This document shows, piece by piece, positions 52,824 to 61,886 of a stretch of 64,000 nucleotides of DNA. The notes under the pieces were generated by a model. It did no database searches, was not told where the DNA came from, and saw nothing but the letters and a program-made list of their open reading frames with translations. The stretch is from a virus. Position numbers and translations under genes: made by a program. Position 1 is the first letter of the stretch. Each line of letters begins with the position of its first letter. The stretch is taken from the IMG/VR virus record IMGVR_UViG_3300021964_000013; one strand, 5' to 3'.

Positions 52824-53263
52824 TATCTTTCACTGTCTTTAATCATGTCGTCTACACCAGAGGAGTAAACCTTGCTAGAATAGGATTTTCGTTTACTGAA
52901 CACACTTCTTTCGGATGTTGGTATATCCTCTTCACCGAGTAATATCCTATATATCCTGCTTATCAAATGCTTACCTTTAGTGCTGACAGTATAGATCGTG
53001 TATTTCTGCGTTGTTCTATTCCTCTCACGCCAGACTGTAATCCAACCATCTCTACGTAAACGTTCCCATCTATGTTTGTCCCAAGAATATGTCTTAGTAC
53101 CTACTTTAAAATCATTACGCGTAAATCGGTTTTTGCAATCTAAATAGATTAACAATTCAAGGTCTGCATCGTTGATACTGTATGTCTTACAGGCCCATTT
53201 TCTAACGAGCCTGTAGTACATAAACAGTTTCATATCTCTTATGTCAGATGAGTCTAATTTCAT
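52823..53263 (-). CDS. Winged-helix-like protein
   Basis: DLELLIYL...RLRRDGWI...YTVSTKGK is MarR/wHTH-like. Confidence 0.5.
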   Translation of the reverse strand: MKLDSSDIRDMKLFMYYRLVRKWACKTYSINDADLELLIYLDCKNRFTRNDFKVGTKTYSWDKHRWERLRRDGWITVWRERNRTTQKYTIYTVSTKGKHLISRIYRILLGEEDIPTSERSVFSKRKSYSSKVYSSGVDDMIKDSER

Positions 53264-53523
53264 TATTCGACTAGAACTATATCTCCAGCTGTAATAACTT
53301 GGTAGGACTCTCCGTTGTAATCGATAACATGACCTGAGTGCCTATCGTAGTAGACCACCTCGCCTTCTTTAATGACATCTTTGACTTTATCGCCTACACT
53401 GACAACGTCAGCCTTTAGGTACCTATTGTCACTATCCAGGTTATCCGTGATCTCAAGACCACCAATAGTCTTAGATTCTATCTTGTGGCGCTTTACTAGC
53501 ACATAAAAATTAACTGCGCGCAT
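53263..53523 (-). CDS. groES: Co-chaperonin GroES
   Basis: KTIGGL mobile loop, VVSVG..VIKEGEVVYY; directly after groEL. Confidence 0.85.
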   Translation of the reverse strand: MRAVNFYVLVKRHKIESKTIGGLEITDNLDSDNRYLKADVVSVGDKVKDVIKEGEVVYYDRHSGHVIDYNGESYQVITAGDIVLVE

Positions 53524-55078
53524 TTTCTATTCTTTTGTTTGAGATTACACAATCGGCTGAGATAATTGTCTTGACAACGCTAACCGCGTTAGACAATGCT
53601 GTTTTAGTTACTAGCACTGGGTCGATAACACCGGCTTTTACCATATTGGTAACTTTTCCAGTCATAACGTTGATGCCTGTGCCTTTAGGTAGCCTTTCTG
53701 TCATTGGCTCTAGGCCAGCGTTTTCTAAAACGGTTACAAAGGGGTAGTCAATAGCGGCGAGCAAGACTTCCTCTCCCATGTTCTTGGCACTGATTCTTTC
53801 AGACGCGTTACGCAGTGCAACGCCTCCACCAGGTACGATGCCGTCCTTAAGTGCTGCTTTTGTTGCATACAAGGCATCTTCGACCCTGTCTTTCTTTTCT
53901 TTAAGCTCAACTTTTGATAGTGCACCCACACGTACAACTCCAACATGGCCAGATAACATACCAAGTCGTTGTTCAAGTTTAGCTTTGATGTATGGGTTTT
54001 TTTCATCTTTAATTTTCGCTTCTACGCTTTCGATACGGTCAAGCGCTTCTTGAGGCGTCTCTTCAACAGTAATCACAGTGTTTTTACTATCTGTTACTGA
54101 TTTTAACGCTCTACCTAAGCAACTTGGGTCAATCATATCAAGATCATCACCTAATTCCTCGTTCATCACCTGTGCGCCTGTGATAGCAGCAAGATCAGCA
54201 ATAGTGTCTTGTCTCGTTGGTCCAAAGCCCGGAGGATCGATAATATTCACCTTGATATTACCTTTTACCTTGTTCATTAACAAAGTTTGCAGTGGCTGCT
54301 GCTCTAGCTCAGCTACAATAAGTAATTCCTCATTGTTCTTAATAGCGTGTTCTAGGATGTTTTGTATCTTACGGATATTAGGTATTGGTGAAGACACAAT
54401 AAGTACGAGAGGGTTCTCTAAAATAGCTCTACCCTTGTCCTTGTCAGTGATTAAGTAGGGTGATTTAAGCCCAGAGTCAAACTGCGTACCGTCAACAACG
54501 TCTACATAGGTGGCTTCTGTCTCACTTTCTTCCATCAACACAACGCCGTTTCGCCCGACTTGGGAAAAAGCATCAGCAATTATGCGCCCAAGCTCGGTAT
54601 CGTTGTTTGTTGAGATAGTCGCAACATCATAAAGCCTTTCTTCAGTGACGTCGATGCTAATTTTATCTAGGTACATGAGCACTTTTATCAGTGCAGTGTC
54701 CAAACCATCACGAATCTCACGGTTGCTTGCCGTCTGCCGCGCCTTAATCGCCAACATCAGCATATTGTACGCCAATATTGTTGCTGTGGTCGTACCGTCA
54801 CCAGCCTCTTTCACTGTATTGCGCGCTGCCTCCTTAATAAGTGTTGCCCCCATATTCTCAATTGGGTCCTCTAAGATCACAGACTCAGCAACTGTAACAC
54901 CATCTTTGGTGATTACTGGTCTTCCGAGCGCATCTTCATAGATCACACACTTACCAGAAGCCCCCAAAGTGCTACTCACCGCTTCAGCGAGCTTTCTTAC
55001 ACCTTCTAAAAGGCCATTTTCTGCCTTTGAACCAAACACAAGGTCCTTTACAATTTCACTAGGTTGATTGAATTCCAT
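53510..55078 (-). CDS. groEL: Chaperonin GroEL
   Basis: [30 protein letters not shown] motifs. Confidence 0.95.
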
Positions 55079-55711: not shown

Positions 55712-55905
55712 CTTGTATTTCTTTTAATGTCTATATACTAAATTACGCCTTTTTTTAATGTGTTAAGGTATATAGGGGTTTTGTATAATGCTATACATAT
55801 AGAGCTACAGCCGCGTTTTACAAAGTGATTTTCTAAACCCGGGCCTGGGTGCGTTTACGTTTTACCCTTTTAGGCTTTTGGCCTTAGCTGTATCTCTATG
55901 CTATA

Positions 55906-55936
55906 CACAGAAAAGAAACTCGGTCGGGCGTATAAT
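55906..55936 (+). promoter_or_regulatory. Early promoter motif copy 1 (CACA-N8-ACt-N10-TATAAT)
   Basis: Upstream of 55970; one mismatch in the ACG box; overlaps TATATTTG at 55936-55943. Confidence 0.75.
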
Positions 55937-55969
55937 ATATTTGATTATTAACCCACTAAATATCTAATC

Positions 55970-56209
55970 ATGGGAAAGACAAATGTAGTAGGCAAGAAAA
56001 GATTCATCATTGCCAAGAGTATGATAGGCAAAGGCCTACAAGTAGAAGTAGAAACTCGCACAGGTAATACATTCAAGTATGACCACGACCAAATCTACAC
56101 ACTGTTCAAAGAGAAGTTCGACAGTATGCCATGCTTCGATAAATATGGCAACTACACGAACAGCGACAATCTACCTAAGTTCGTACGCGAAGCACTAACT
56201 AAGAAGTAA
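55970..56209 (+). CDS. Triplicated early protein, copy 1
   Basis: Paralogue of the 56571 and 57007 ORFs; has its own promoter. Confidence 0.85.
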   Translation: MGKTNVVGKKRFIIAKSMIGKGLQVEVETRTGNTFKYDHDQIYTLFKEKFDSMPCFDKYGNYTNSDNLPKFVREALTKK

Positions 56210-56216
56210 TAACCAC

Positions 56217-56236
56217 GGGGCCGCTACGGCGGTCCC
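56217..56236 (+). other. GC-rich hairpin with a cUACGg tetraloop and no U tract
   Basis: GGGGCCGC-TACG-GCGGTCCC. Confidence 0.6.
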
Positions 56237-56251
56237 ATTAACCACTCACTC

Positions 56252-56428
56252 ATGAAGTCAATCAAAGCAAAACGTCAACAATCAAGCGTAAGTGTAATAG
56301 CACTATCAGCAATAGGCTTAGTAACAGCATCCATGTTTAAGGAAGCAGCATATGACTCAGTTCTGGTATTCCAATCAATCATGGCACTAAGTATGCTAAC
56401 AGGAGTTATCAGTATACTAACGGATTAA
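56252..56428 (+). CDS. 58-aa two-TM membrane protein (not in ORF track)
   Basis: MKSIKAKRQQSSVSVIALSAIGLVTASMFKEAAYDSVLVFQSIMALSMLTGVISILTD*. Confidence 0.6.
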   Translation: MKSIKAKRQQSSVSVIALSAIGLVTASMFKEAAYDSVLVFQSIMALSMLTGVISILTD

Positions 56429-56463
56429 GGATCCAATACATCGCAAAGCGGCAACTATCAATT

Positions 56464-56488
56464 GAGGATCTTCGGGTCCTCTTTTTTT
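56464..56488 (+). terminator. Rho-independent terminator
   Basis: GAGGATC-TTCG-GGTCCTC-T7. Confidence 0.85.
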
Positions 56489-56507
56489 ATCCTCACGCTA
56501 TGCTATA

Positions 56508-56538
56508 CACAGAAGGAAAACGCGGTTATTCGTATAAT
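56508..56538 (+). promoter_or_regulatory. Early promoter motif copy 2
   Basis: CACA-gaaggaaa-ACG-cggttattcg-TATAAT. Confidence 0.8.
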
Positions 56539-56570
56539 AGAGTTGATTATTAACTAATACCATATATACA

Positions 56571-56816
56571 ATGGGAAAATCAAATGAAGCCAAAGTGGCA
56601 AAGAAAAGATTCATTATCGCTAAATCAATGATTGGCAAGGGACTGAAAGTAGAGGTCGAAACAAGAACAGGTAACACGTTTGCCTACGATCATGATCAGA
56701 TCTATACTTTGTTCAAGGAAAAATTTGATAGTATGCCTTGCTTTGAAAAGTACGGTAACTATACTAACTCTGACAACTTGCCTAAGTTTGTTCGTGAGGC
56801 ATTGACCAAGAAGTAA
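56571..56816 (+). CDS. Triplicated early protein, copy 2
   Basis: 68 of 71 core residues identical to copy 1. Confidence 0.85.
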   Translation: MGKSNEAKVAKKRFIIAKSMIGKGLKVEVETRTGNTFAYDHDQIYTLFKEKFDSMPCFEKYGNYTNSDNLPKFVREALTKK

Positions 56817-56852
56817 TACTTCAATTACATCGCGATCGCGGAACTACCTACT

Positions 56853-56878
56853 GGGGGCCTTCGGGCTCCCTTTTTTTT
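56853..56878 (+). terminator. Rho-independent terminator
   Basis: GGGGGCC-TTCG-GGCTCCC-T8. Confidence 0.85.
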
Positions 56879-56949
56879 ACATATACTTCAGGATCCTAAG
56901 GATATGATATTCTTGAGGATCTTTTTTTATACCAACGTGTATAGCACTA

Positions 56950-56980
56950 CACAAAAAGAAAACGAACTTCTTCGTATAAT
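56950..56980 (+). promoter_or_regulatory. Early promoter motif copy 3
   Basis: CACA-aaaagaaa-ACG-aacttcttcg-TATAAT. Confidence 0.8.
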
Positions 56981-57006
56981 GAGACTGTTAATCAAATATA
57001 AGTACT

Positions 57007-57243
57007 ATGAGTAAAAAGATCGAGACAGTAGCAAAAAAGAGATTTGTCATCTCTAAAGGCCTAATCGGAAAAGGCGCAGTAATTGAGTTTGTAAATGCCA
57101 AAGGTGATACTTGTGTATACGACCACGATGTAGTGTACACTCACTTTAAGGAGAAATTTGATGGCATGCCTTGCTTCGAAAAGTATGGGAATTACACCAA
57201 CTCAAAGAACTTACCAAAGTTCGTTCGTGAGTTTTTAGGTTAA
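57007..57243 (+). CDS. Triplicated early protein, copy 3 (more diverged)
   Basis: KKRFVISKGLIGKG...YDHD..Y..FKEKFDGMPCFEKYGNYTNS.NLPKFVRE. Confidence 0.85.
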   Translation: MSKKIETVAKKRFVISKGLIGKGAVIEFVNAKGDTCVYDHDVVYTHFKEKFDGMPCFEKYGNYTNSKNLPKFVREFLG

Positions 57244-57253
57244 TCCTAAGATT

Positions 57254-57286
57254 AGGGCACCTTCGGGTGCTCTTTTCTTTTTTTTT
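57254..57286 (+). terminator. Rho-independent terminator
   Basis: AGGGCACC-TTCG-GGTGCTCT followed by a long T run. Confidence 0.85.
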
Positions 57287-57414
57287 GCACTTTGCTATAC
57301 ACAAGAAAAAAACGGAAATGCAGATCCAACTAGGTGTTAAATACTATGACAATAGCCCCCTACTAAGATCTCTTAACAGGCTAATGTCACACTTTTTGAG
57401 ATCCTCAGATTCTA

Positions 57415-57445
57415 CACAAAACCTCAACGACTATCCTGATATAAT
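57415..57445 (+). promoter_or_regulatory. Early promoter motif copy 4
   Basis: CACA-aaacctca-ACG-actatcctga-TATAAT. Confidence 0.8.
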
Positions 57446-57468
57446 ATAACTGCAATTAATGCTCACTC

Positions 57469-57669
57469 ATGACTATATATCGTATACAGATCCAAAAAGA
57501 TAACTCTGTTAAAGTTTTAGAAACTAAAAACAAACCCAGAGGCATTGTTTTAAACCCCCACCTATCATCTATGTTATTAATGAAGTATCCACGTTTGGCT
57601 ACTGGCAAGATAATCACTCTGAGAGCATCTCAGCTGTACCTATTAATCAACCAATACTACGAATCATGA
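57469..57669 (+). CDS. Hypothetical early protein
   Basis: Downstream of promoter copy 4. Confidence 0.6.
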   Translation: MTIYRIQIQKDNSVKVLETKNKPRGIVLNPHLSSMLLMKYPRLATGKIITLRASQLYLLINQYYES

Positions 57670-57875
57670 CCTGTACCTGCGGTAACGATGTCCACCCAAT
57701 CAGGATTAAATTTGGCTACACGTCCTGTGTTAGTTGTTCCACAACTCAAAAGATAGCCTGTATCCCCATTACTAACCATAAAACCGGCAATACTATCCAG
57801 TTGGTTGATCAGGCCACGGCAACACGTGTCGCTAAGTCCTCACGGCGTAAAGGCTACGGTACATGCCTACGATAA
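57666..57875 (+). CDS. Small zinc-finger protein
   Basis: CTCG...CVSCS; ATGA overlap. Confidence 0.65.
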   Translation: MTCTCGNDVHPIRIKFGYTSCVSCSTTQKIACIPITNHKTGNTIQLVDQATATRVAKSSRRKGYGTCLR

Positions 57876-57878
57876 CTG

Positions 57879-57909
57879 CACAATTCAATTACGAAGTTCC
57901 TTATATAAT
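57879..57909 (+). promoter_or_regulatory. Early promoter motif copy 5
   Basis: CACA-attcaatt-ACG-aagttcctta-TATAAT. Confidence 0.8.
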
Positions 57910-57926
57910 ACACTTAAATAATGCAT

Positions 57927-58082
57927 ATGAAGCCATTCATCTATCAGGACACTGTTATCAGTAACCCACACTACGACGAGACCGGCCGCTTTGTGGTCGA
58001 TCCAGTAAACTACTACGGTCAAGCGTACCTTGACTACCTCGAAGAATTAATTTCAAATACTATAACCAATGGGAGCAACTAA
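57927..58082 (+). CDS. 51-aa hypothetical protein (not in ORF track)
   Basis: MKPFIYQDTV...ETGRFVVDPVNYYG...*; directly after promoter copy 5. Confidence 0.55.
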   Translation: MKPFIYQDTVISNPHYDETGRFVVDPVNYYGQAYLDYLEELISNTITNGSN

Positions 58083-58356
58083 TATCCATTATGAGTTTCC
58101 GCTAGTAGATGCTGGCGGCAGAGAAGTAAGTGCGCGAGACGCATACAACCAACTAGTAGACGAGGCGCTATCATACTACGGTAGCGATCCTTATTCCGGT
58201 ACTATCGCTACATGCGAGTTTGCAGGCAGTATACGAGCGCCTAAAGATGACGACGAGTATGATGATCTACTCGATCGTATAGACAAGCGCGAAGTTCGTT
58301 ACTACAAAGACGAAGAGGCTAAGCGTTGGGTATTCATTGGCTGGGCAGCATGCTAG
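58069..58356 (+). CDS. Hypothetical early protein
   Basis: MGA...DAYNQLVDEA..YYGSDPYSGTIAT...FIGWAAC. Confidence 0.7.
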   Translation: MGATNIHYEFPLVDAGGREVSARDAYNQLVDEALSYYGSDPYSGTIATCEFAGSIRAPKDDDEYDDLLDRIDKREVRYYKDEEAKRWVFIGWAAC

Positions 58357-58368
58357 AAATCAAGTAGC

Positions 58369-58602
58369 ATGAACAAGCAATACAAATACATTACTGTACT
58401 CGACTACACTAATGGTCAGGTTTATATCTACGACTACAATAAAGACAAGTACAGTGCAAAACACTTTGTAGAAAACAGGCACGATCTAAAAATCGTTCAC
58501 TACATGGTACACAATTACAAGCCAGCTTTATGGACAAGCGACATGTACTTCTGCAACCGTGAAGAAGCATATAAACTATTTAATGAAAAAGCAGAGCAAT
58601 GA
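58369..58602 (+). CDS. Hypothetical early protein
   Basis: Operon packing. Confidence 0.6.
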   Translation: MNKQYKYITVLDYTNGQVYIYDYNKDKYSAKHFVENRHDLKIVHYMVHNYKPALWTSDMYFCNREEAYKLFNEKAEQ

Positions 58603-58805
58603 GTAAATTAAAACTAACGGAATTTCAAATCGAAGCAATGGGTGATATACTCGGTGACTACATTGAGCATAACTTCCACGAAGTAGTAGAGCGTGTCCTT
58701 GAATATGGTATACCTGAAGAGTTTGAAGATGTGTCAGACTATATAGATGCTATCGACCCAGAAGAGTTTGATAAGGTCATACAATACCTAAAGTCAACGC
58801 TGTGA
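58599..58805 (+). CDS. Acidic hypothetical early protein
   Basis: Operon packing with ATGA overlap. Confidence 0.6.
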   Translation: MSKLKLTEFQIEAMGDILGDYIEHNFHEVVERVLEYGIPEEFEDVSDYIDAIDPEEFDKVIQYLKSTL

Positions 58806-58978
58806 ACAAGATGATAAGGTGCTTAGAACGCCACGCCTATGCCCCTGAGATGAATAAGTTGTGGTTTGAAGATGGTTCCTACGTTACAATGCCTCAATGC
58901 GTAGACCTTGATGAAGCAGAGATGAGGCTTAAATACGGTTTATACGAAGAGTATGGAAGAGCAGAAATCACAGATTAA
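58802..58978 (+). CDS. 58-aa hypothetical protein (not in ORF track)
   Basis: GTGA overlap; fills the gap. Confidence 0.45.
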   Translation: MNKMIRCLERHAYAPEMNKLWFEDGSYVTMPQCVDLDEAEMRLKYGLYEEYGRAEITD

Positions 58979-59099
58979 AGAGTGGTTAGACGCCACAGCA
59001 GAAGAGATGTTTGGTGAGTTTGGTTTCACCACTTGTGATGAAGATCAGCAACTAACACTTATCTCGCATTTAGTAAACAGTATACTGCATGCTAAATAA
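58953..59099 (+). CDS. 48-aa hypothetical protein (not in ORF track)
   Basis: MEEQKSQIKEWLD..AEEMFGEFGFTTCDEDQQ...*; ends just before promoter copy 6. Confidence 0.55.
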   Translation: MEEQKSQIKEWLDATAEEMFGEFGFTTCDEDQQLTLISHLVNSILHAK

Positions 59100-59102
59100 C
59101 TG

Positions 59103-59133
59103 CACAAATCACATACGACTTACCTCGTATAAT
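59103..59133 (+). promoter_or_regulatory. Early promoter motif copy 6
   Basis: CACA-aatcacat-ACG-acttacctcg-TATAAT. Confidence 0.8.
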
Positions 59134-59139
59134 TAATAC

Positions 59140-59203
59140 GTAGTGCGTAAAGCAAGTTACCAGCACGCTTCATGTTATACGGTTTGGTTAACGCTTGCAC
59201 TAC
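59140..59203 (+). ncRNA. Candidate structured RNA hairpin
   Basis: Stacked helices GTAGTGC/GCACTAC, AAGC/GCTT, GTTA/TAAC, CCAG/TTGG starting at the expected +1. Confidence 0.5.
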
Positions 59204-59204
59204 A

Positions 59205-59290
59205 GGGTGTACACTGGCATGGCTGCCCGGGAGTTTTTTAGGTATTCTCTCGTTAGGTTAATAATCTAGGTTCGAATCCTAGTACACCCA
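59205..59290 (+). tRNA. Atypical tRNA/tRNA-like element (Leu-TAG-like loop)
   Basis: Perfect acceptor GGGTGTA/TACACCC plus discriminator A; perfect T arm CTAGG-TTCGAAT-CCTAG; irregular D and anticodon arms; loop TTTAGGT. Confidence 0.6.
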
Positions 59291-59310
59291 CTAACTTTAA
59301 TTCTATAAAC

Positions 59311-59751
59311 ATGAGTGAACTCAAAATCGAAAGGCCATGCCACCTATCACTTTTGTACTACGTCACCGACGATGTGTACGAAGCAGTCCTACAATCATGC
59401 AGTAAGTACTCGTATACAGGTCTTGGTGCGTGGAACGAGCTAGCGAGTAATTTTATACTATCTAGCGTAAGCTACGGTACTATTCAAACTATCTTGTCTA
59501 ACCACGGTGCGATGCACACTACAAGCCATATGGATACGTATGAGTTTATACTAGGTGTTGAAGTAACTGAAATGATAGAAAAAGATGTCCCAAGACGCGA
59601 TTGGCCAACAGTATATGCAGATCTTGTTGCCGCAGGTTTCCGTAACCGTGCGTACAACACCGATCACGCAGTAGACTGGGTGCTTGACGGCGTCATTATC
59701 AACAAAGAGAGTGTTCATTCTAAACTAGCGCTAGATGAGGCAGGAAACTAA
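59311..59751 (+). CDS. Hypothetical early protein
   Basis: 146-aa ORF. Confidence 0.65.
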   Translation: MSELKIERPCHLSLLYYVTDDVYEAVLQSCSKYSYTGLGAWNELASNFILSSVSYGTIQTILSNHGAMHTTSHMDTYEFILGVEVTEMIEKDVPRRDWPTVYADLVAAGFRNRAYNTDHAVDWVLDGVIINKESVHSKLALDEAGN

Positions 59752-60166
59752 AACAAGGCTTGTTAAAGCCGCTAAGTTTGCTTTAAGGCAAGCAGGCTTG
59801 AGAGAAATTACCACCGAGCGTCAAAGCAAAAACGGTACAACAGCATGGCGATGTGATAAGTCAGGCTATGAATTCTCAGAATACGAGAGCGGTTATATCC
59901 GCAGGCAAAGCGTGCCAAGCTTTTACAAAGGCAAAAACAACGCGATATACCAAATCAACCCAAGGCACAGCGTCAAGGAAACGCTACCATCAGAGCTTAT
60001 ATGGTACCACGGTAAAATGCGAAGGTTAGAAGAGCGTGTAGAAGAAACGTCTGAGTTCGAGATGATCGAAGACCAACACAGTCGCTTGCTATACATGCTT
60101 GCGTTCTACGTACGGAACAAAGACCGCTTCATCCATAATAAACATATTAAAGATATAATGTCATGA
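59735..60166 (+). CDS. Hypothetical early protein
   Basis: EITTERQSKNGT...YESGYIRR...YQINP. Confidence 0.65.
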   Translation: MRQETKTRLVKAAKFALRQAGLREITTERQSKNGTTAWRCDKSGYEFSEYESGYIRRQSVPSFYKGKNNAIYQINPRHSVKETLPSELIWYHGKMRRLEERVEETSEFEMIEDQHSRLLYMLAFYVRNKDRFIHNKHIKDIMS

Positions 60167-60348
60167 GTTACTTAAGCGAGTGCTGTGGTGCTGAACCACA
60201 TAGACTTTATTACTTCGAAGACGACATGGGTATATGCGGTGCTTGTAGCGAGCACGCTCATTTCGAAGAATGGGAAGAAGGTGCTGATCCTGAGATGAAG
60301 CATTGGGAACAAATGATCGCCTGGCGAGAAAAATTCAGCGGTGATTAA
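60163..60348 (+). CDS. Small zinc-binding protein
   Basis: SECCGA...GICGACSEH. Confidence 0.65.
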   Translation: MSYLSECCGAEPHRLYYFEDDMGICGACSEHAHFEEWEEGADPEMKHWEQMIAWREKFSGD

Positions 60349-60351
60349 CCG

Positions 60352-60382
60352 CACAAATCGATAACGTGGCACCTTATATAAT
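60352..60382 (+). promoter_or_regulatory. Early promoter motif copy 7
   Basis: CACA-aatcgata-ACG-tggcacctta-TATAAT. Confidence 0.8.
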
Positions 60383-60401
60383 AACAGTGTAATCAAATTA
60401 A

Positions 60402-60671
60402 ATGCTTATGAGCAATACAGAGTTTCCAAAATGGTACAACGGCCCAAAACTACAAGCCAGTACCGCAGTCAACCCATTCACAGGTGTAAAACGTGATCTC
60501 AATGAAGTAGAATACAGTATCTACGCTATGGTAATCAATACAGAACGTGACGTCGAGCGTATGGGTGGTGTATTCAACCCAGCCACAGCAGAGTTGCAGT
60601 CTAAAATGGCAAAAGGCATCGCTTGGTTTCGCAGTCATAGCGTCGACGCATACTTTGATCTTATAGACTAG
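60402..60671 (+). CDS. Hypothetical early protein
   Basis: PKWYNG...VNPFTG...KGIAWFR....AYFDLID. Confidence 0.7.
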   Translation: MLMSNTEFPKWYNGPKLQASTAVNPFTGVKRDLNEVEYSIYAMVINTERDVERMGGVFNPATAELQSKMAKGIAWFRSHSVDAYFDLID

Positions 60672-60673
60672 TT

Positions 60674-60883
60674 ATGACACGAGACGAAGTAATGAACAAG
60701 TGGATATGGCTGCCGCGTCTACAAATGAAGGCGGCCATCCACTTCAACAAAAAGTACAACGAGATCACACCAGATCAAGAGTACGAGATCAGGCTAATCA
60801 TCCTGAAAGAACGCGAAGAGCGTGAAGCGAAAGAAAAATCAATTCAAGAATTTTATAAAAGCAAAGGCTATGGCTCACTCTAG
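60674..60883 (+). CDS. Hypothetical early protein
   Basis: Operon packing. Confidence 0.55.
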   Translation: MTRDEVMNKWIWLPRLQMKAAIHFNKKYNEITPDQEYEIRLIILKEREEREAKEKSIQEFYKSKGYGSL

Positions 60884-61013
60884 TGAAGAATACATCTCAG
60901 ATGAAGAGTTAAATGCGATTGGTATGTCCCGCGAAATGTGGGATCGCTTACGCGAGGAAGAAGAGCGCTACGTTATATCGTGGGCGCATAGTGTTAACAG
61001 AAATAATCTATAA
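60870..61013 (+). CDS. Hypothetical early protein
   Basis: Start moved to ATG 60870 to reduce overlap. Confidence 0.5.
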   Translation: MAHSSEEYISDEELNAIGMSREMWDRLREEEERYVISWAHSVNRNNL

Positions 61014-61015
61014 AA

Positions 61016-61243
61016 ATGGCAGTACTTTACAAAGATGCGATGAAGAGATTCATTGATGAAATCACAGATGCTTGCAACCAGCATGAAATTCTTTATGCAG
61101 ATATGGTGCATCAAGAGAGTCTTTTCGACTTTCAAGAGCAGTTTATAGCTGCTTTAATGAATGCCCATGAAAATGGCTTGTTCACTCAAGAGCAGTTACT
61201 TAAGTTCAACTACGTATTCGGTATTACTAATGAAAAAGGTTAG
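61016..61243 (+). CDS. Hypothetical early protein
   Basis: Operon packing; A-rich leader. Confidence 0.6.
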   Translation: MAVLYKDAMKRFIDEITDACNQHEILYADMVHQESLFDFQEQFIAALMNAHENGLFTQEQLLKFNYVFGITNEKG

Positions 61244-61466
61244 TATACAAGTAGAGCTTCACGTGATAAGAAGCGAGTACTATGACTTTTTAGTAGAAGT
61301 AGATGTGCCAGAGGATGTTGACACTAATAGCAGTGAATTCGATATAAGCGAATTAGAAGAAGAAGCAGAATCACTCGCGATAGAAAAATACTGGTCCGAA
61401 GATCAAAGGCCATACGACGCGGAAACAGACGATATAAATCTTATAGAATTTGAATTATGGGACTAG
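61230..61466 (+). CDS. Highly acidic small protein
   Basis: About one third Asp/Glu; start at ATG 61230. Confidence 0.6.
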   Translation: MKKVSIQVELHVIRSEYYDFLVEVDVPEDVDTNSSEFDISELEEEAESLAIEKYWSEDQRPYDAETDDINLIEFELWD

Positions 61467-61852
61467 ATATGTACCTATTTCGCTTAAAGCGAGAAGCATT
61501 AGATAATCCATCATACAACATGGATGAAGACGGCGAAGAAGTAATGTATTGGCGTAAAGCCAATGCTATACACCGCTGGTTTACAGATGGTTACGAAAAC
61601 GACAACCTTGAGTACCTTGAGTGTGAAATAGATAAGCTACAGATCCTTAAAAAGCAATGCCAAGAGGATATCGACAACAAGGATAATCCAGATCATAAGA
61701 AAAATTTAGTTACTGCTAGTGGTTTTTTCTGGGGCGGTATGGAATATGACGAGTGGTTCTACAAAGACTTACAAGAGACTGTAGACAAGATCACTGAGTT
61801 AGAGCAAGAACACGAAGAAGGTGATGAATACTTTTACTACGCGTGGTACTAA
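61457..61852 (+). CDS. Phage protein of unknown function (MGLDMYL...YWRKANAIHRWF type)
   Basis: Recognisable motifs, including GFFWGG.EYDEW. Confidence 0.75.
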   Translation: MGLDMYLFRLKREALDNPSYNMDEDGEEVMYWRKANAIHRWFTDGYENDNLEYLECEIDKLQILKKQCQEDIDNKDNPDHKKNLVTASGFFWGGMEYDEWFYKDLQETVDKITELEQEHEEGDEYFYYAWY

Positions 61853-61855
61853 CTG

Positions 61856-61886
61856 CACAGACCAATTACGTACCGCTATGTATAAT
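61856..61886 (+). promoter_or_regulatory. Early promoter motif copy 8
   Basis: CACA-gaccaatt-ACG-taccgctatg-TATAAT. Confidence 0.8.

What the first reader, a model, noticed from the sequence alone, without database searches (positions are those of the whole stretch)
55970..57243. First early gene is triplicated as separate transcription units and synonymously recoded
Seen: three paralogues, each with its own promoter and UUCG terminator. Copies 1 and 2 differ at only 3 of 71 core residues, yet by hand count about 45 of 66 synonymous codon pairs differ, including AGT/TCA and AGC/TCT Ser switches. Inference: strong selection for dosage of an invariant protein right after entry (typical of stoichiometric anti-defence or host-takeover inhibitors). 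DNA divergence would prevent recombinational collapse or escape a single CRISPR spacer. Copy 3 may hit a variant target.
Basis: partly seen in the sequence, partly recalled or inferred. Interest (0 to 1): 0.7.

Follow-up and report, generated by a model that had tools for sequence, protein, structure and literature searches.

The report
Three old copies of one early phage gene
A marine Bacteroidota-type phage carries three separately transcribed copies of a tiny, very conserved, basic protein of unknown function at the start of its early genes; the copies are real, but their differing codons reflect great age under strong purifying selection, not deliberate recoding.

Summary
Three paralogous ORFs (55970-56209, 56571-56816, 57007-57243, + strand) each follow a phage-type promoter and end at a UUCG-hairpin terminator. 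Copies 1 and 2 differ at 3 of 71 core residues, yet 45 of 66 synonymous codon pairs differ.

The "recoding" reading is not supported. Synonymous sites are at saturation: 47 of 70 differ against 39-40.5 expected (P 0.03-0.07). Across 56 multi-copy relatives, within-genome codon identity equals the saturation baseline. Orthologous copies change synonymously no faster than GroEL. Some younger duplicates elsewhere still share DNA.

New here:
- The family is large (371 clusters at 50% identity) and uncharacterised.
- It occurs as 1-4 tandem, separately promoted units in many ~60-kb metagenomic podophages.
- It was duplicated or homogenised separately in three clades.
- Copies within a genome co-vary at protein level.
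- Copy 1 has capsid-like codon bias, which points to high expression.
- The same domain sits at the C-terminus of cellular proteins with UDG-fold or HEPN domains. The protein is basic, so not a DNA mimic.

Function remains unknown. The scan had noted only this same stretch before (the promoter series), not other DNA.

The parts
55790..55797 (+). GCTATACA box upstream of the array (box 0)
   Evidence: 13 copies in the window vs 2.7 expected by chance; 5 of them lie within 55.79-57.30 kb
55900..55936 (+). Promoter P1: GCTATACA box fused to ACACA-N8-AC(T)-N9-TATAAT, with TATAAT at 55931-55936
   Evidence: the same motif precedes copy 1 in relatives
55970..56209 (+). Copy 1 (79 aa, pI 9.55), type A; codon bias like the capsid-like gene
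56217..56236 (+). Stable UACG-loop hairpin with no U-tract; not a canonical terminator
   Evidence: -18.4 kcal/mol, z -3.9
56252..56428 (+). 58-aa ORF co-transcribed with copy 1, hydrophobic by eye; found at the same place in relatives but only 38-66% identical
56464..56488 (+). Terminator T1: UUCG hairpin followed by seven T
56502..56538 (+). Promoter P2: GCTATACA box plus ACACA-N8-ACG-N9-TATAAT
56571..56816 (+). Copy 2 (81 aa, pI 9.52), type A
   Evidence: AF2 model pLDDT 85.6
56853..56878 (+). Terminator T2a: UUCG hairpin followed by eight T
56890..56930 (+). Second hairpin followed by seven T (T2b)
   Evidence: -13.9 kcal/mol
56938..56980 (+). Promoter P3: inverted box (GTATAGC) plus ACACA-N8-ACG-N9-TATAAT
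57007..57243 (+). Copy 3 (78 aa, pI 9.3), type B; forms a distinct orthologous group in the clade
57254..57285 (+). Terminator T3: UUCG hairpin followed by a T-run
   Evidence: -17.6 kcal/mol, z -4.7
57294..57311 (+). Fourth GCTATACACA box with no TATAAT at the usual spacing (orphan)
   Evidence: sequence read
57343..57396 (+). Invariant bipartite element (TGACAATAGCCCC.TACT - N15 - CTAATGTCACA) that follows the array in all clades

Best explanation
This is an old tandem array of an uncharacterised ~9-kDa basic alpha/beta protein family. It heads the + strand (presumed early) block of a ~60-70 kb podophage of Flavobacteriia-type hosts. Each copy is its own transcription unit, with a phage-type tripartite promoter carrying a GCTATACA box and an intrinsic terminator.

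The c1/c2 duplication predates the radiation of the window's clade, and the type A / type B split is older still. Orthologous genes of that clade are themselves close to synonymous saturation. The paralogues are therefore fully saturated at silent sites, while purifying selection keeps the proteins nearly identical (omega well below 0.05). The codon differences are a result of age, not a selected recoding.

The multi-copy state is kept, and has arisen or been homogenised separately in three clades. The likely reasons are that the phage needs much of this protein immediately (copy 1 is codon-optimised like the capsid gene) and that the copies have partly specialised (type A vs type B).

The likely molecular role is stoichiometric binding of a nucleic acid or a nucleic-acid-handling target. 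This is inferred because the protein is basic and the same domain is the C-terminal module of cellular proteins whose N-terminal parts have a UDG fold or a HEPN domain.

Shown: the anatomy, saturation, family distribution, fusions and codon bias. Inferred: early timing, the dosage rationale and the binding function.
For: - Anatomy.
- Saturation: 47/70 observed vs 39-40.5 expected.
- Within-genome pairs stay at about 0.40-0.48 identical codons in every amino-acid-identity bin from 0.6 to 0.95, and 0.30 for the single pair above 0.95, which is the window's own c1-c2. Between-genome pairs rise to 0.73.
- Two-fold sites: 0.52 within genomes, equal to the baseline.
- GroEL orthologues in the clade are already at 54-64% identical codons. 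c1, c2 and c3 orthologues are at 52-69%, so their synonymous rates are ordinary.
- Against the 95%-identical relative L114, only 2 of 190 synonymous codons changed, while GroEL shows 9%.
- Copies per locus range from 1 to 4.
- In the tree, copies group by major clade. Within clades A and C they form position-specific orthologous groups.
- Each copy has its own promoter and terminator in clades A, B and C.
- Codon bias: c1 0.76 vs capsid-like gene 0.82, against 0.44-0.55 in the other window genes tested.
- pI 9.3-9.6.
- 371 family clusters, including proteins in which the domain is C-terminal.
- P0165 scores 31.7 bits for HEPN_Swt1, above the 27.5 cut-off.
- The N-terminal family of P0135, P0152 and the L111 431-aa protein folds with pLDDT 95.9. 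All 50 best PDB matches are UDG-superfamily proteins.
Against: - In the window's own clade, within-genome c1-c2 codon identity (0.39) is below the cross-genome non-orthologous value (0.46) in 34 of 36 genome pairs. The window pair (0.30) is the lowest of all. That is a weak hint of extra divergence.
- Within-genome copies are more alike in protein than cross-genome c1-c2 pairs (0.882 vs 0.848, permutation p 0.00045). Simple ancient duplication with independent evolution does not predict this.
- There are no expression data.
- No structural or sequence homologue of known function was found.
- The fusion partners suggest a nucleic-acid context but do not prove it.
Confidence: 0.6

Rival explanations
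1. Selected synonymous recoding. Selection actively drives the DNA of the copies apart while holding the protein constant. This would prevent recombinational loss of copies or targeting of all copies by a single CRISPR spacer.
For: - The window's c1-c2 pair exceeds the saturation expectation marginally (P 0.03-0.07), with 13 of 37 two-fold sites identical (my count from the table).
- In clade A, within-genome codon identity is 0.39 vs 0.46 for cross-genome paralogues.
- Protein-level co-variation within genomes occurs without DNA similarity.
- The longest exact matches between coding regions are only 14, 9 and 11 nt.
Against: - There is no family-wide excess: 56 genomes give 0.52 vs a baseline of 0.52, with a sign test pointing the other way.
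- Orthologues show no faster synonymous change than GroEL, and less at short range.
- Younger duplicates keep 62-67% identical codons (L001, L106).
- The repeated promoters themselves keep a 17-nt identity.
- The clade-A comparisons are not phylogenetically independent.
Confidence: 0.12
2. Stoichiometric anti-defence or host-takeover inhibitor that binds a host protein. High early dosage explains the multiple units. Genome-specific shared residues in the copies track the host target.
For: - Position at the head of the presumed early block with strong repeated promoters.
- Extreme conservation.
- Within-genome co-variation of residues.
- The domain is fused to a HEPN domain and to a UDG-fold domain, and to an HNH-like motif seen by eye, in cellular proteins that may belong to conflict systems.
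- The neighbourhood of the L111 fusion gene holds only ORFs without Pfam matches, one with a nuclease-like C-terminal motif by eye.
Against: - No PADLOC hit for the domain itself.
- A basic protein is not a DNA mimic.
- No identified target.
- Invariance across clades that presumably infect different hosts argues for a universal target such as nucleic acid.
Confidence: 0.2
3. Phage transcription regulator or operator-binding protein. It would bind the GCTATACA boxes or the invariant bipartite element next to the array and so control early promoters, in the manner of Cro.
For: - The protein family, the GCTATACA box and the invariant element co-occur. Boxes number 21 and 10 in two family-bearing genomes, against 1-4 in three cultured relatives without the family. 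The element is present only in the former.
- Five boxes flank the three units.
- The element is an invariant inverted repeat with no covariation, as expected of a protein-binding site.
- The protein is basic.
Against: - The co-occurrence may simply reflect phylogeny.
- No DNA-binding fold was recognised.
- A regulator rarely needs three strongly expressed copies.
- The box overlaps the -35 region and may be read by RNA polymerase itself.
Confidence: 0.15
4. The copies were assembled by recombination between different phages (cassette shuffling) rather than by duplication in place. On this view their DNA was never similar within this genome.
For: - Mosaicism within the array. L125 pairs an L016-like copy 1 with a copy 2 whose protein is identical to that of L009.
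- ORF58 is 48% identical between the window and L114 although the flanks are 95% identical. L114 also has a ~360-nt insertion between units 2 and 3.
- Variable small ORFs lie between copies in relatives.
Against: - Copies group by major phage clade in the tree.
- Copies share genome-specific residues.
- Codon-level orthology by position is traceable across the clade.
Confidence: 0.12

Closest known systems
Host-takeover and early-gene modules of lytic phages, with many small genes behind repeated strong early promoters and terminators. Examples are the SPO1 host-takeover module and the terminal-repeat 'Tre' genes of Twort-like/Kayvirus phages (recalled from general knowledge; Kayvirus transcript maps: PMC7698491).
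   Same: Small proteins of unknown function sit at the head of the early region. They are arranged as several short transcription units with near-identical promoters. Paralogous families occur.
   Different: Here one single family is repeated 1-4 times and is among the most conserved proteins of the phage. The promoter is a distinct tripartite type, not a canonical sigma-70 promoter. No homology to those proteins was found.
T7 gp0.3 (Ocr), the first early gene, a stoichiometric anti-restriction DNA mimic (from general knowledge)
   Same: It is the first gene transcribed on entry, small, and needed at once in quantity.
   Different: Ocr is strongly acidic and single-copy. This family is basic (pI 9.3-9.6), multi-copy and unrelated in fold.
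Concerted evolution of duplicated bacterial genes by gene conversion, such as tufA/tufB (from general knowledge)
   Same: Paralogues within a genome resemble each other in protein more than expected from their age. Some genome-specific residues use the same codon in both copies.
   Different: tuf copies stay nearly identical in DNA. Here silent sites are saturated and the longest shared stretch in the coding regions is 14 nt. Any conversion must be rare and short-patch, or the co-variation is parallel selection.
UDG-superfamily and Swt1-like HEPN (PF18731) proteins that carry this domain at the C-terminus
   Same: The ~70-residue domain, with the invariant YxHD and PC(F/W)xKY motifs, is the same.
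   Different: The phage proteins are the stand-alone domain. The enzymatic partners are absent from the phage array.

Membership tests
Intrinsic (Rho-independent) terminator | G+C-rich hairpin directly followed by a U-tract | tested here: met
   T1, T2a and T3 are UUCG hairpins followed by 7-9 T, and T2b is a hairpin followed by 7 T. The hairpin at 56217-56236 lacks the U-tract and does not qualify.
Sigma-70-type promoter (TTGACA-17-TATAAT) | Both hexamers at 16-18 nt spacing | tested here: not met
   A perfect TATAAT is present. No TTGACA-like -35 is found, and the scan does not list P1-P3. ACACA and ACG blocks sit at fixed spacing instead.
Bacteroidota primary-sigma promoter (-33 TTTG / -7 TAnnTTTG; consensus recalled from general knowledge) | TAnnTTTG at -7 and TTTG near -33 | tested here: inconclusive
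   By eye, only P1 has TATATTTG overlapping the TATAAT. P2 and P3 do not, and no TTTG lies at -33. No dedicated scan was available.
Ocr-type DNA-mimic anti-restriction protein | Strongly acidic surface that mimics DNA | tested here: not met
   pI 9.3-9.55, with K+R 14-16 vs D+E 9-10.
Paralogues homogenised by gene conversion | High DNA identity between copies, including silent sites | tested here: not met
   73% and 64% DNA identity. 47 of 70 silent positions differ. Longest exact match is 14 nt.
Paralogues homogenised by gene conversion | Within-genome copies more alike than cross-genome paralogues | tested here: met
   At the amino-acid level only: 0.882 vs 0.848, permutation p 0.00045, 9 genomes.
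PD-(D/E)xK / Hjc-like nuclease fold (for the small protein) | Significant structural match | tested here: inconclusive
   Best VIA Z is 3.6 (splicing endonuclease). Hjc, D212 and PvuII give Z 2.5-3.0 or Foldseek E above 1.
Uracil-DNA glycosylase superfamily (for the N-terminal domain fused to this domain in P0135, P0152 and the L111 431-aa protein) | UDG alpha/beta fold | tested here: met
   Model pLDDT 95.9. The top 50 Foldseek PDB matches are all UdgX, TDG, family-4 UDG or SMUG1, with probabilities mostly 0.9-1.0, best E 6e-4 and TM 0.33-0.59. Catalytic residues were not examined.
Swt1-like HEPN (PF18731) in fusion protein P0165 | Score above Pfam gathering cut-off | tested here: met
   31.7 bits vs cut-off 27.5, E 2e-7.
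Known anti-phage-defence or counter-defence protein families | Match to a PADLOC model | tested here: not met
   No PADLOC hit for copy 2. Only the HEPN part of P0165 hits PDC-M34B weakly. No anti-defence library was available.

The most novel reading that the evidence does not exclude
The paralogues are held identical in protein, with genome-specific residues shared by both copies, while their DNA is kept at or below random codon identity. That would mean selection maintains 'same protein, maximally different DNA', to block recombinational collapse or single-spacer targeting. Alternatively, the protein, the GCTATACA boxes and the invariant bipartite element form one self-contained early regulatory module, unique to this uncultured phage lineage.
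Probability: 0.12. Interest if true: 0.7.

Novelty: new member of a known kind. Interest (0 to 1): 0.42.

Why it matters
This family is one of the most conserved proteins of a widespread lineage of uncultured aquatic (marine and freshwater) Bacteroidota-type podophages. It forms 371 clusters at 50% identity and gives 281 hits in IMG/VR. The phages place it first in the presumed early block and express it from up to four autonomous units, yet nothing is known about it.

Its domain also ends cellular proteins with a UDG fold or a HEPN domain. The family is therefore a concrete candidate for a new nucleic-acid- or defence-related binding module.

The case is also a useful caution. Near-identical paralogous proteins with scrambled codons look engineered, but age plus purifying selection explains them.

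Tried and rejected
- Pfam gave no hit and PHROGs only E 0.04-0.05 noise for the three copies and ORF58. PADLOC gave no hit for copy 2.
- blastn and tblastn against 50,697 phage records gave no match.
- The profile search in Panino, ctfjg026 and elemoE gave no match, but without a positive control in that call. The nearest held record G001 also gave none.
- The PDB sequence-profile search returned only noise, E 0.5.
- Foldseek against PDB and BFVD found nothing at E<=0.001. VIA wide gave a best Z of 3.6.
- The atlas shape search returned only unnamed hypothetical clusters. The atlas feature search gave no usable hit.
- The homodimer prediction gave no verdict (score 0.02). It is not evidence either way.
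- Rfam found nothing relevant in 55.5-62 kb.
- A DxDGD motif scan of the giant virion proteins, looking for a virion RNA polymerase, found nothing in the 2519-aa protein.
- The contigs carrying fusion proteins P0165 and P0152 were too short to give context.
- Two literature searches returned nothing specific to this family.
- An apparent 4.9-kb terminal duplication in one IMG/VR contig was judged to be an assembly overlap, not extra copies.
- The idea that the C-bias of copy 1 explains the below-0.5 identity at two-fold sites was rejected on arithmetic. An unbiased partner gives 0.5 whatever the bias of the other copy.
Full report
**Observation.** The window region 55.7-57.5 kb holds three + strand ORFs: c1 55970-56209 (79 aa), c2 56571-56816 (81 aa) and c3 57007-57243 (78 aa). 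They are clear paralogues. A family profile run over all six frames of the window finds only these three.

From KKRF to the end, c1 and c2 differ at 3 of 71 residues. 45 of the 66 identical multi-codon positions use different codons, including AGT/TCA and AGC/TCT serine switches. Over the full length there are 6 amino-acid differences in 79 aligned codons and 47 of 70 differing silent positions. Nei-Gojobori dN is 0.076, with pS above the 0.75 limit, so dS is saturated. c3 differs from c1 and c2 at 28 of 77 and 26 of 78 aligned residues.

**Transcription signals.** Each copy is preceded by ACACA-N8-ACG-N9-TATAAT at fixed spacing, at 55905, 56507 and 56949. Four more copies of this promoter type lie downstream, at 57414, 59102, 60351 and 61855.

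P1-P3 also carry a GCTATACA box fused to the ACACA block; it is inverted at P3. Five of the window's 13 boxes lie within 55.79-57.30 kb, against 2.7 expected in the whole window.

UUCG hairpins followed by T-runs end the units at 56464-56481, 56853-56870 and 57254-57273. A second hairpin plus T-run follows c2.

One correction applies. The hairpin directly after c1 has a UACG loop and -18.4 kcal/mol but no U-tract. A 58-aa ORF (56252-56428) lies before the first real terminator, so unit 1 is bicistronic. This ORF is found at the same place in relatives.

**Context.**
- The window is a tailed-phage genome. It carries giant virion proteins, tail-fibre domains, a primase-helicase and GroEL/GroES.
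- Its capsid-like protein is 44-52% identical to those of Flavobacterium, Cellulophaga and Maribacter podophages.
- The array sits where the minus-strand structural block and the + strand block of small ORFs diverge.
- That the genes are early is inferred from this position and from the promoter series. No expression data could be obtained.

**The family.** Pfam and PHROGs gave no significant match for the three copies, and PADLOC none for copy 2. A word-index search found 59 close proteins in metagenomes, several pairs of them on the same contig. A profile search of 1.84 billion representatives found 371 clusters at E<=0.001. IMG/VR holds 281 matching stretches, mostly on ~60-68 kb contigs.

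Eighteen positions are invariant over the 34 sequences aligned: R13 F14 I16 Y39 H41 D42 F52 M55 C57 F58 K60 Y61 Y64 T65 N66 P71 F73 R75. The proteins are basic, pI 9.3-9.55.

AlphaFold2 gives a confident model (pLDDT 85.6, pTM 0.71): four strands, three short helices, a strand and a C-terminal helix. No solved or viral predicted structure matches it convincingly.

**Copy number and architecture in relatives.**
- All eight loci first fetched had 3-4 tandem copies.
- The first 97 loci had 1, 2, 3 or 4 copies in 42, 33, 17 and 5 cases.
- After adding metagenome loci and dereplicating, 105 loci gave 49, 36, 18 and 2. These are lower bounds, because many loci end near the array.
- In the window's own clade almost every copy has the ACACA...ACG...TATAAT motif upstream.
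- In two more distant clades, each copy has its own related box (GCTATACA or GTATAGCA), a second conserved block, an A/T-rich -10-like block, and a UUCG or GAAA hairpin with a T-run.
- Separate units per copy are thus a conserved design, not a peculiarity of this genome.
- Variable small ORFs are interspersed between copies in relatives.

**Age and origin of the copies.** In a maximum-likelihood tree, copies group by major phage clade, with support 95/87, 91/84 and 96/93. Within clade A, type B (c3-like) and type A (c1/c2-like) copies are separate starred groups. Within clade C the copies form groups by position. The multi-copy state therefore arose, or was homogenised, separately in the three clades and is old within each.

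**Test of 'recoding'.**
1. *Saturation expectation.* Drawing codons independently from the window's own codon usage predicts 39.1-40.5 differing positions of 70 for c1-c2. 47 are observed (one-sided P 0.03-0.07). For c1-c3, 31 of 47 differ against 25-26 expected (P 0.05-0.09). c2-c3 is exactly at expectation, 26 vs 26.8.
2. *Family-wide.* Within-genome pairs keep about 0.40-0.48 identical codons in every amino-acid-identity bin from 0.6 to 0.95. The single pair above 0.95, the window's own c1-c2, has 0.30. Between-genome pairs rise from 0.45 to 0.73. At two-fold sites, where independence cannot give less than 0.5, the 56 multi-copy genomes pool to 0.521 against a baseline of 0.519. More genomes lie above 0.5 than below (33 vs 21).
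3. *Rates in orthologues.* GroEL orthologues of the clade share 54-64% of codons, and c1, c2 and c3 orthologues share 52-69%. Against the 95%-identical relative L114, only 2 of 190 silent codons changed, while GroEL shows 9%. Silent sites of these genes thus evolve no faster than elsewhere, and more slowly at short range.
4. *Younger duplicates.* Some still share DNA: L001 c1-c2 have 62% identical codons and L106 c1-c2 have 67%.

Together these results say that the silent sites are saturated because the duplicates are older than the clade. They were not driven apart by selection.

**Residual signals.** Two observations are not explained by plain ancient duplication.
- In the nine clade-A genomes with two type-A copies, within-genome codon identity (0.386) is below that of cross-genome non-orthologous pairs (0.461) in 34 of 36 genome pairs. 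The genomes are related, so this is weak.
- Within-genome c1-c2 protein identity (0.882) exceeds cross-genome c1-c2 identity (0.848), permutation p 0.00045. Several genome-specific residues are shared by both copies, often with the same codon, for example TCT/TCT, AGT/AGT and CAA/CAA in L009.

Rare short-patch conversion or parallel adaptation to a common partner would explain the second signal. The data cannot separate these two.

The longest exact matches between coding regions are 14, 9 and 11 nt. The promoters keep 17 nt.

**Dosage.** Copy 1 uses C-ending NNY codons at 16 of 21 positions (0.76), close to the capsid-like gene (0.82). Other window genes tested give 0.44-0.55 and c2 and c3 about 0.5. 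c1 orthologues show the same tendency in most relatives. This fits translational selection on the first gene and supports the high-output reading. It does not lower the expected identity at two-fold sites.

**Functional leads.** Some family members are long proteins with this domain at the C-terminus.
- P0165 has an N-terminal Swt1-like HEPN domain, 31.7 bits against a cut-off of 27.5.
- P0135, P0152 and a 431-aa protein on a 188-kb Flavobacteriales MAG contig share a ~250-aa N-terminal family with no Pfam match. Its model (pLDDT 95.9) matches only UDG-superfamily structures among the best 50 PDB hits.
- P0123 shows an HNH-like Cys/His pattern by eye, but Pfam does not confirm it.

A basic stand-alone domain whose cellular versions are tethered to enzymes that act on DNA or RNA most simply suggests binding of a nucleic acid or a nucleic-acid-handling target. 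This is inference. An Ocr-like DNA mimic is excluded by charge.

**Co-occurring DNA elements.** The GCTATACA box is abundant in two complete family-bearing genomes (21 and 10 copies). It is at background in three cultured relatives without the family (1-4 copies).

A 54-nt bipartite element follows the last copy, at window 57343-57396. Its 13-mer TGACAATAGCCCC occurs once per locus, on the + strand, in 56 fetched loci of all clades. It is absent from the three cultured relatives. In the alignment it shows 34 invariant columns amid unalignable flanks. The element contains an invariant inverted repeat with no covariation, which fits a protein-binding site better than an RNA helix.

Whether the array's protein binds these elements is an open and testable idea.

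**Verdict.** The dosage part of the interpretation gains indirect support. The selected-recoding part is not supported, and the anti-defence role is untested. I rate it a new member of a known kind (paralogous early-gene arrays in lytic phages), of moderate interest.

Noticed in passing
window 57343-57396: Invariant single-copy bipartite element, TGACAATAGCCCC.TACT - N15 - CTAATGTCACA, with an inverted repeat TGACA.TAG / CTA.TGTCA. It lies about 100 nt after the last copy in most loci. The 13-mer occurs once per locus in 56 loci of all clades and is absent from three cultured relatives. There is no Rfam match and no covariation. It may be an operator, origin or packaging site.
   Followed up: partly
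window 55905-61886: Seven copies of a fixed-spacing promoter type, ACACA/GCACA-N8-ACG-N9-TATAAT, on the + strand only. Related tripartite motifs precede the family's genes in distant clades. The motif is neither sigma-70-like nor Bacteroidota-like at -35, so the polymerase or factor that reads it is unknown.
   Followed up: partly
window 56252-56428, compared with L114 3182-3355: The 58-aa ORF between copy 1 and its terminator is only 48% identical to its counterpart in a relative whose flanks are 95% identical. This is a local hypervariable or swapped cassette. The same relative has a ~360-nt insertion between units 2 and 3.
   Followed up: partly
L111 4993-6285 (Flavobacteriales MAG contig), with P0135 and P0152: An unannotated ~250-aa family with a UDG-superfamily fold (model pLDDT 95.9) and no Pfam model. 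It is usually stand-alone and is sometimes fused to the phage-type small domain.
   Followed up: partly
window 53263-55078 (- strand): The phage encodes GroEL (522 aa). A GroES-like gene is called at the corresponding place in relatives. Both are conserved across the clade, next to the divergent promoter region.
   Followed up: no
window 9619-17178 (- strand): A 2519-aa ORF with no PHROG match and no DxDGD motif. Its role (virion RNA polymerase or other injected protein) is open.
   Followed up: no
window 55970-57243, compared with L114: Between the window and a 95%-identical relative, the three copies show 2 synonymous changes in 190 codons, while GroEL shows 9%. Copy 1 has three amino-acid changes and no silent change, and two of the three move towards the copy-2 state.
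   Followed up: partly
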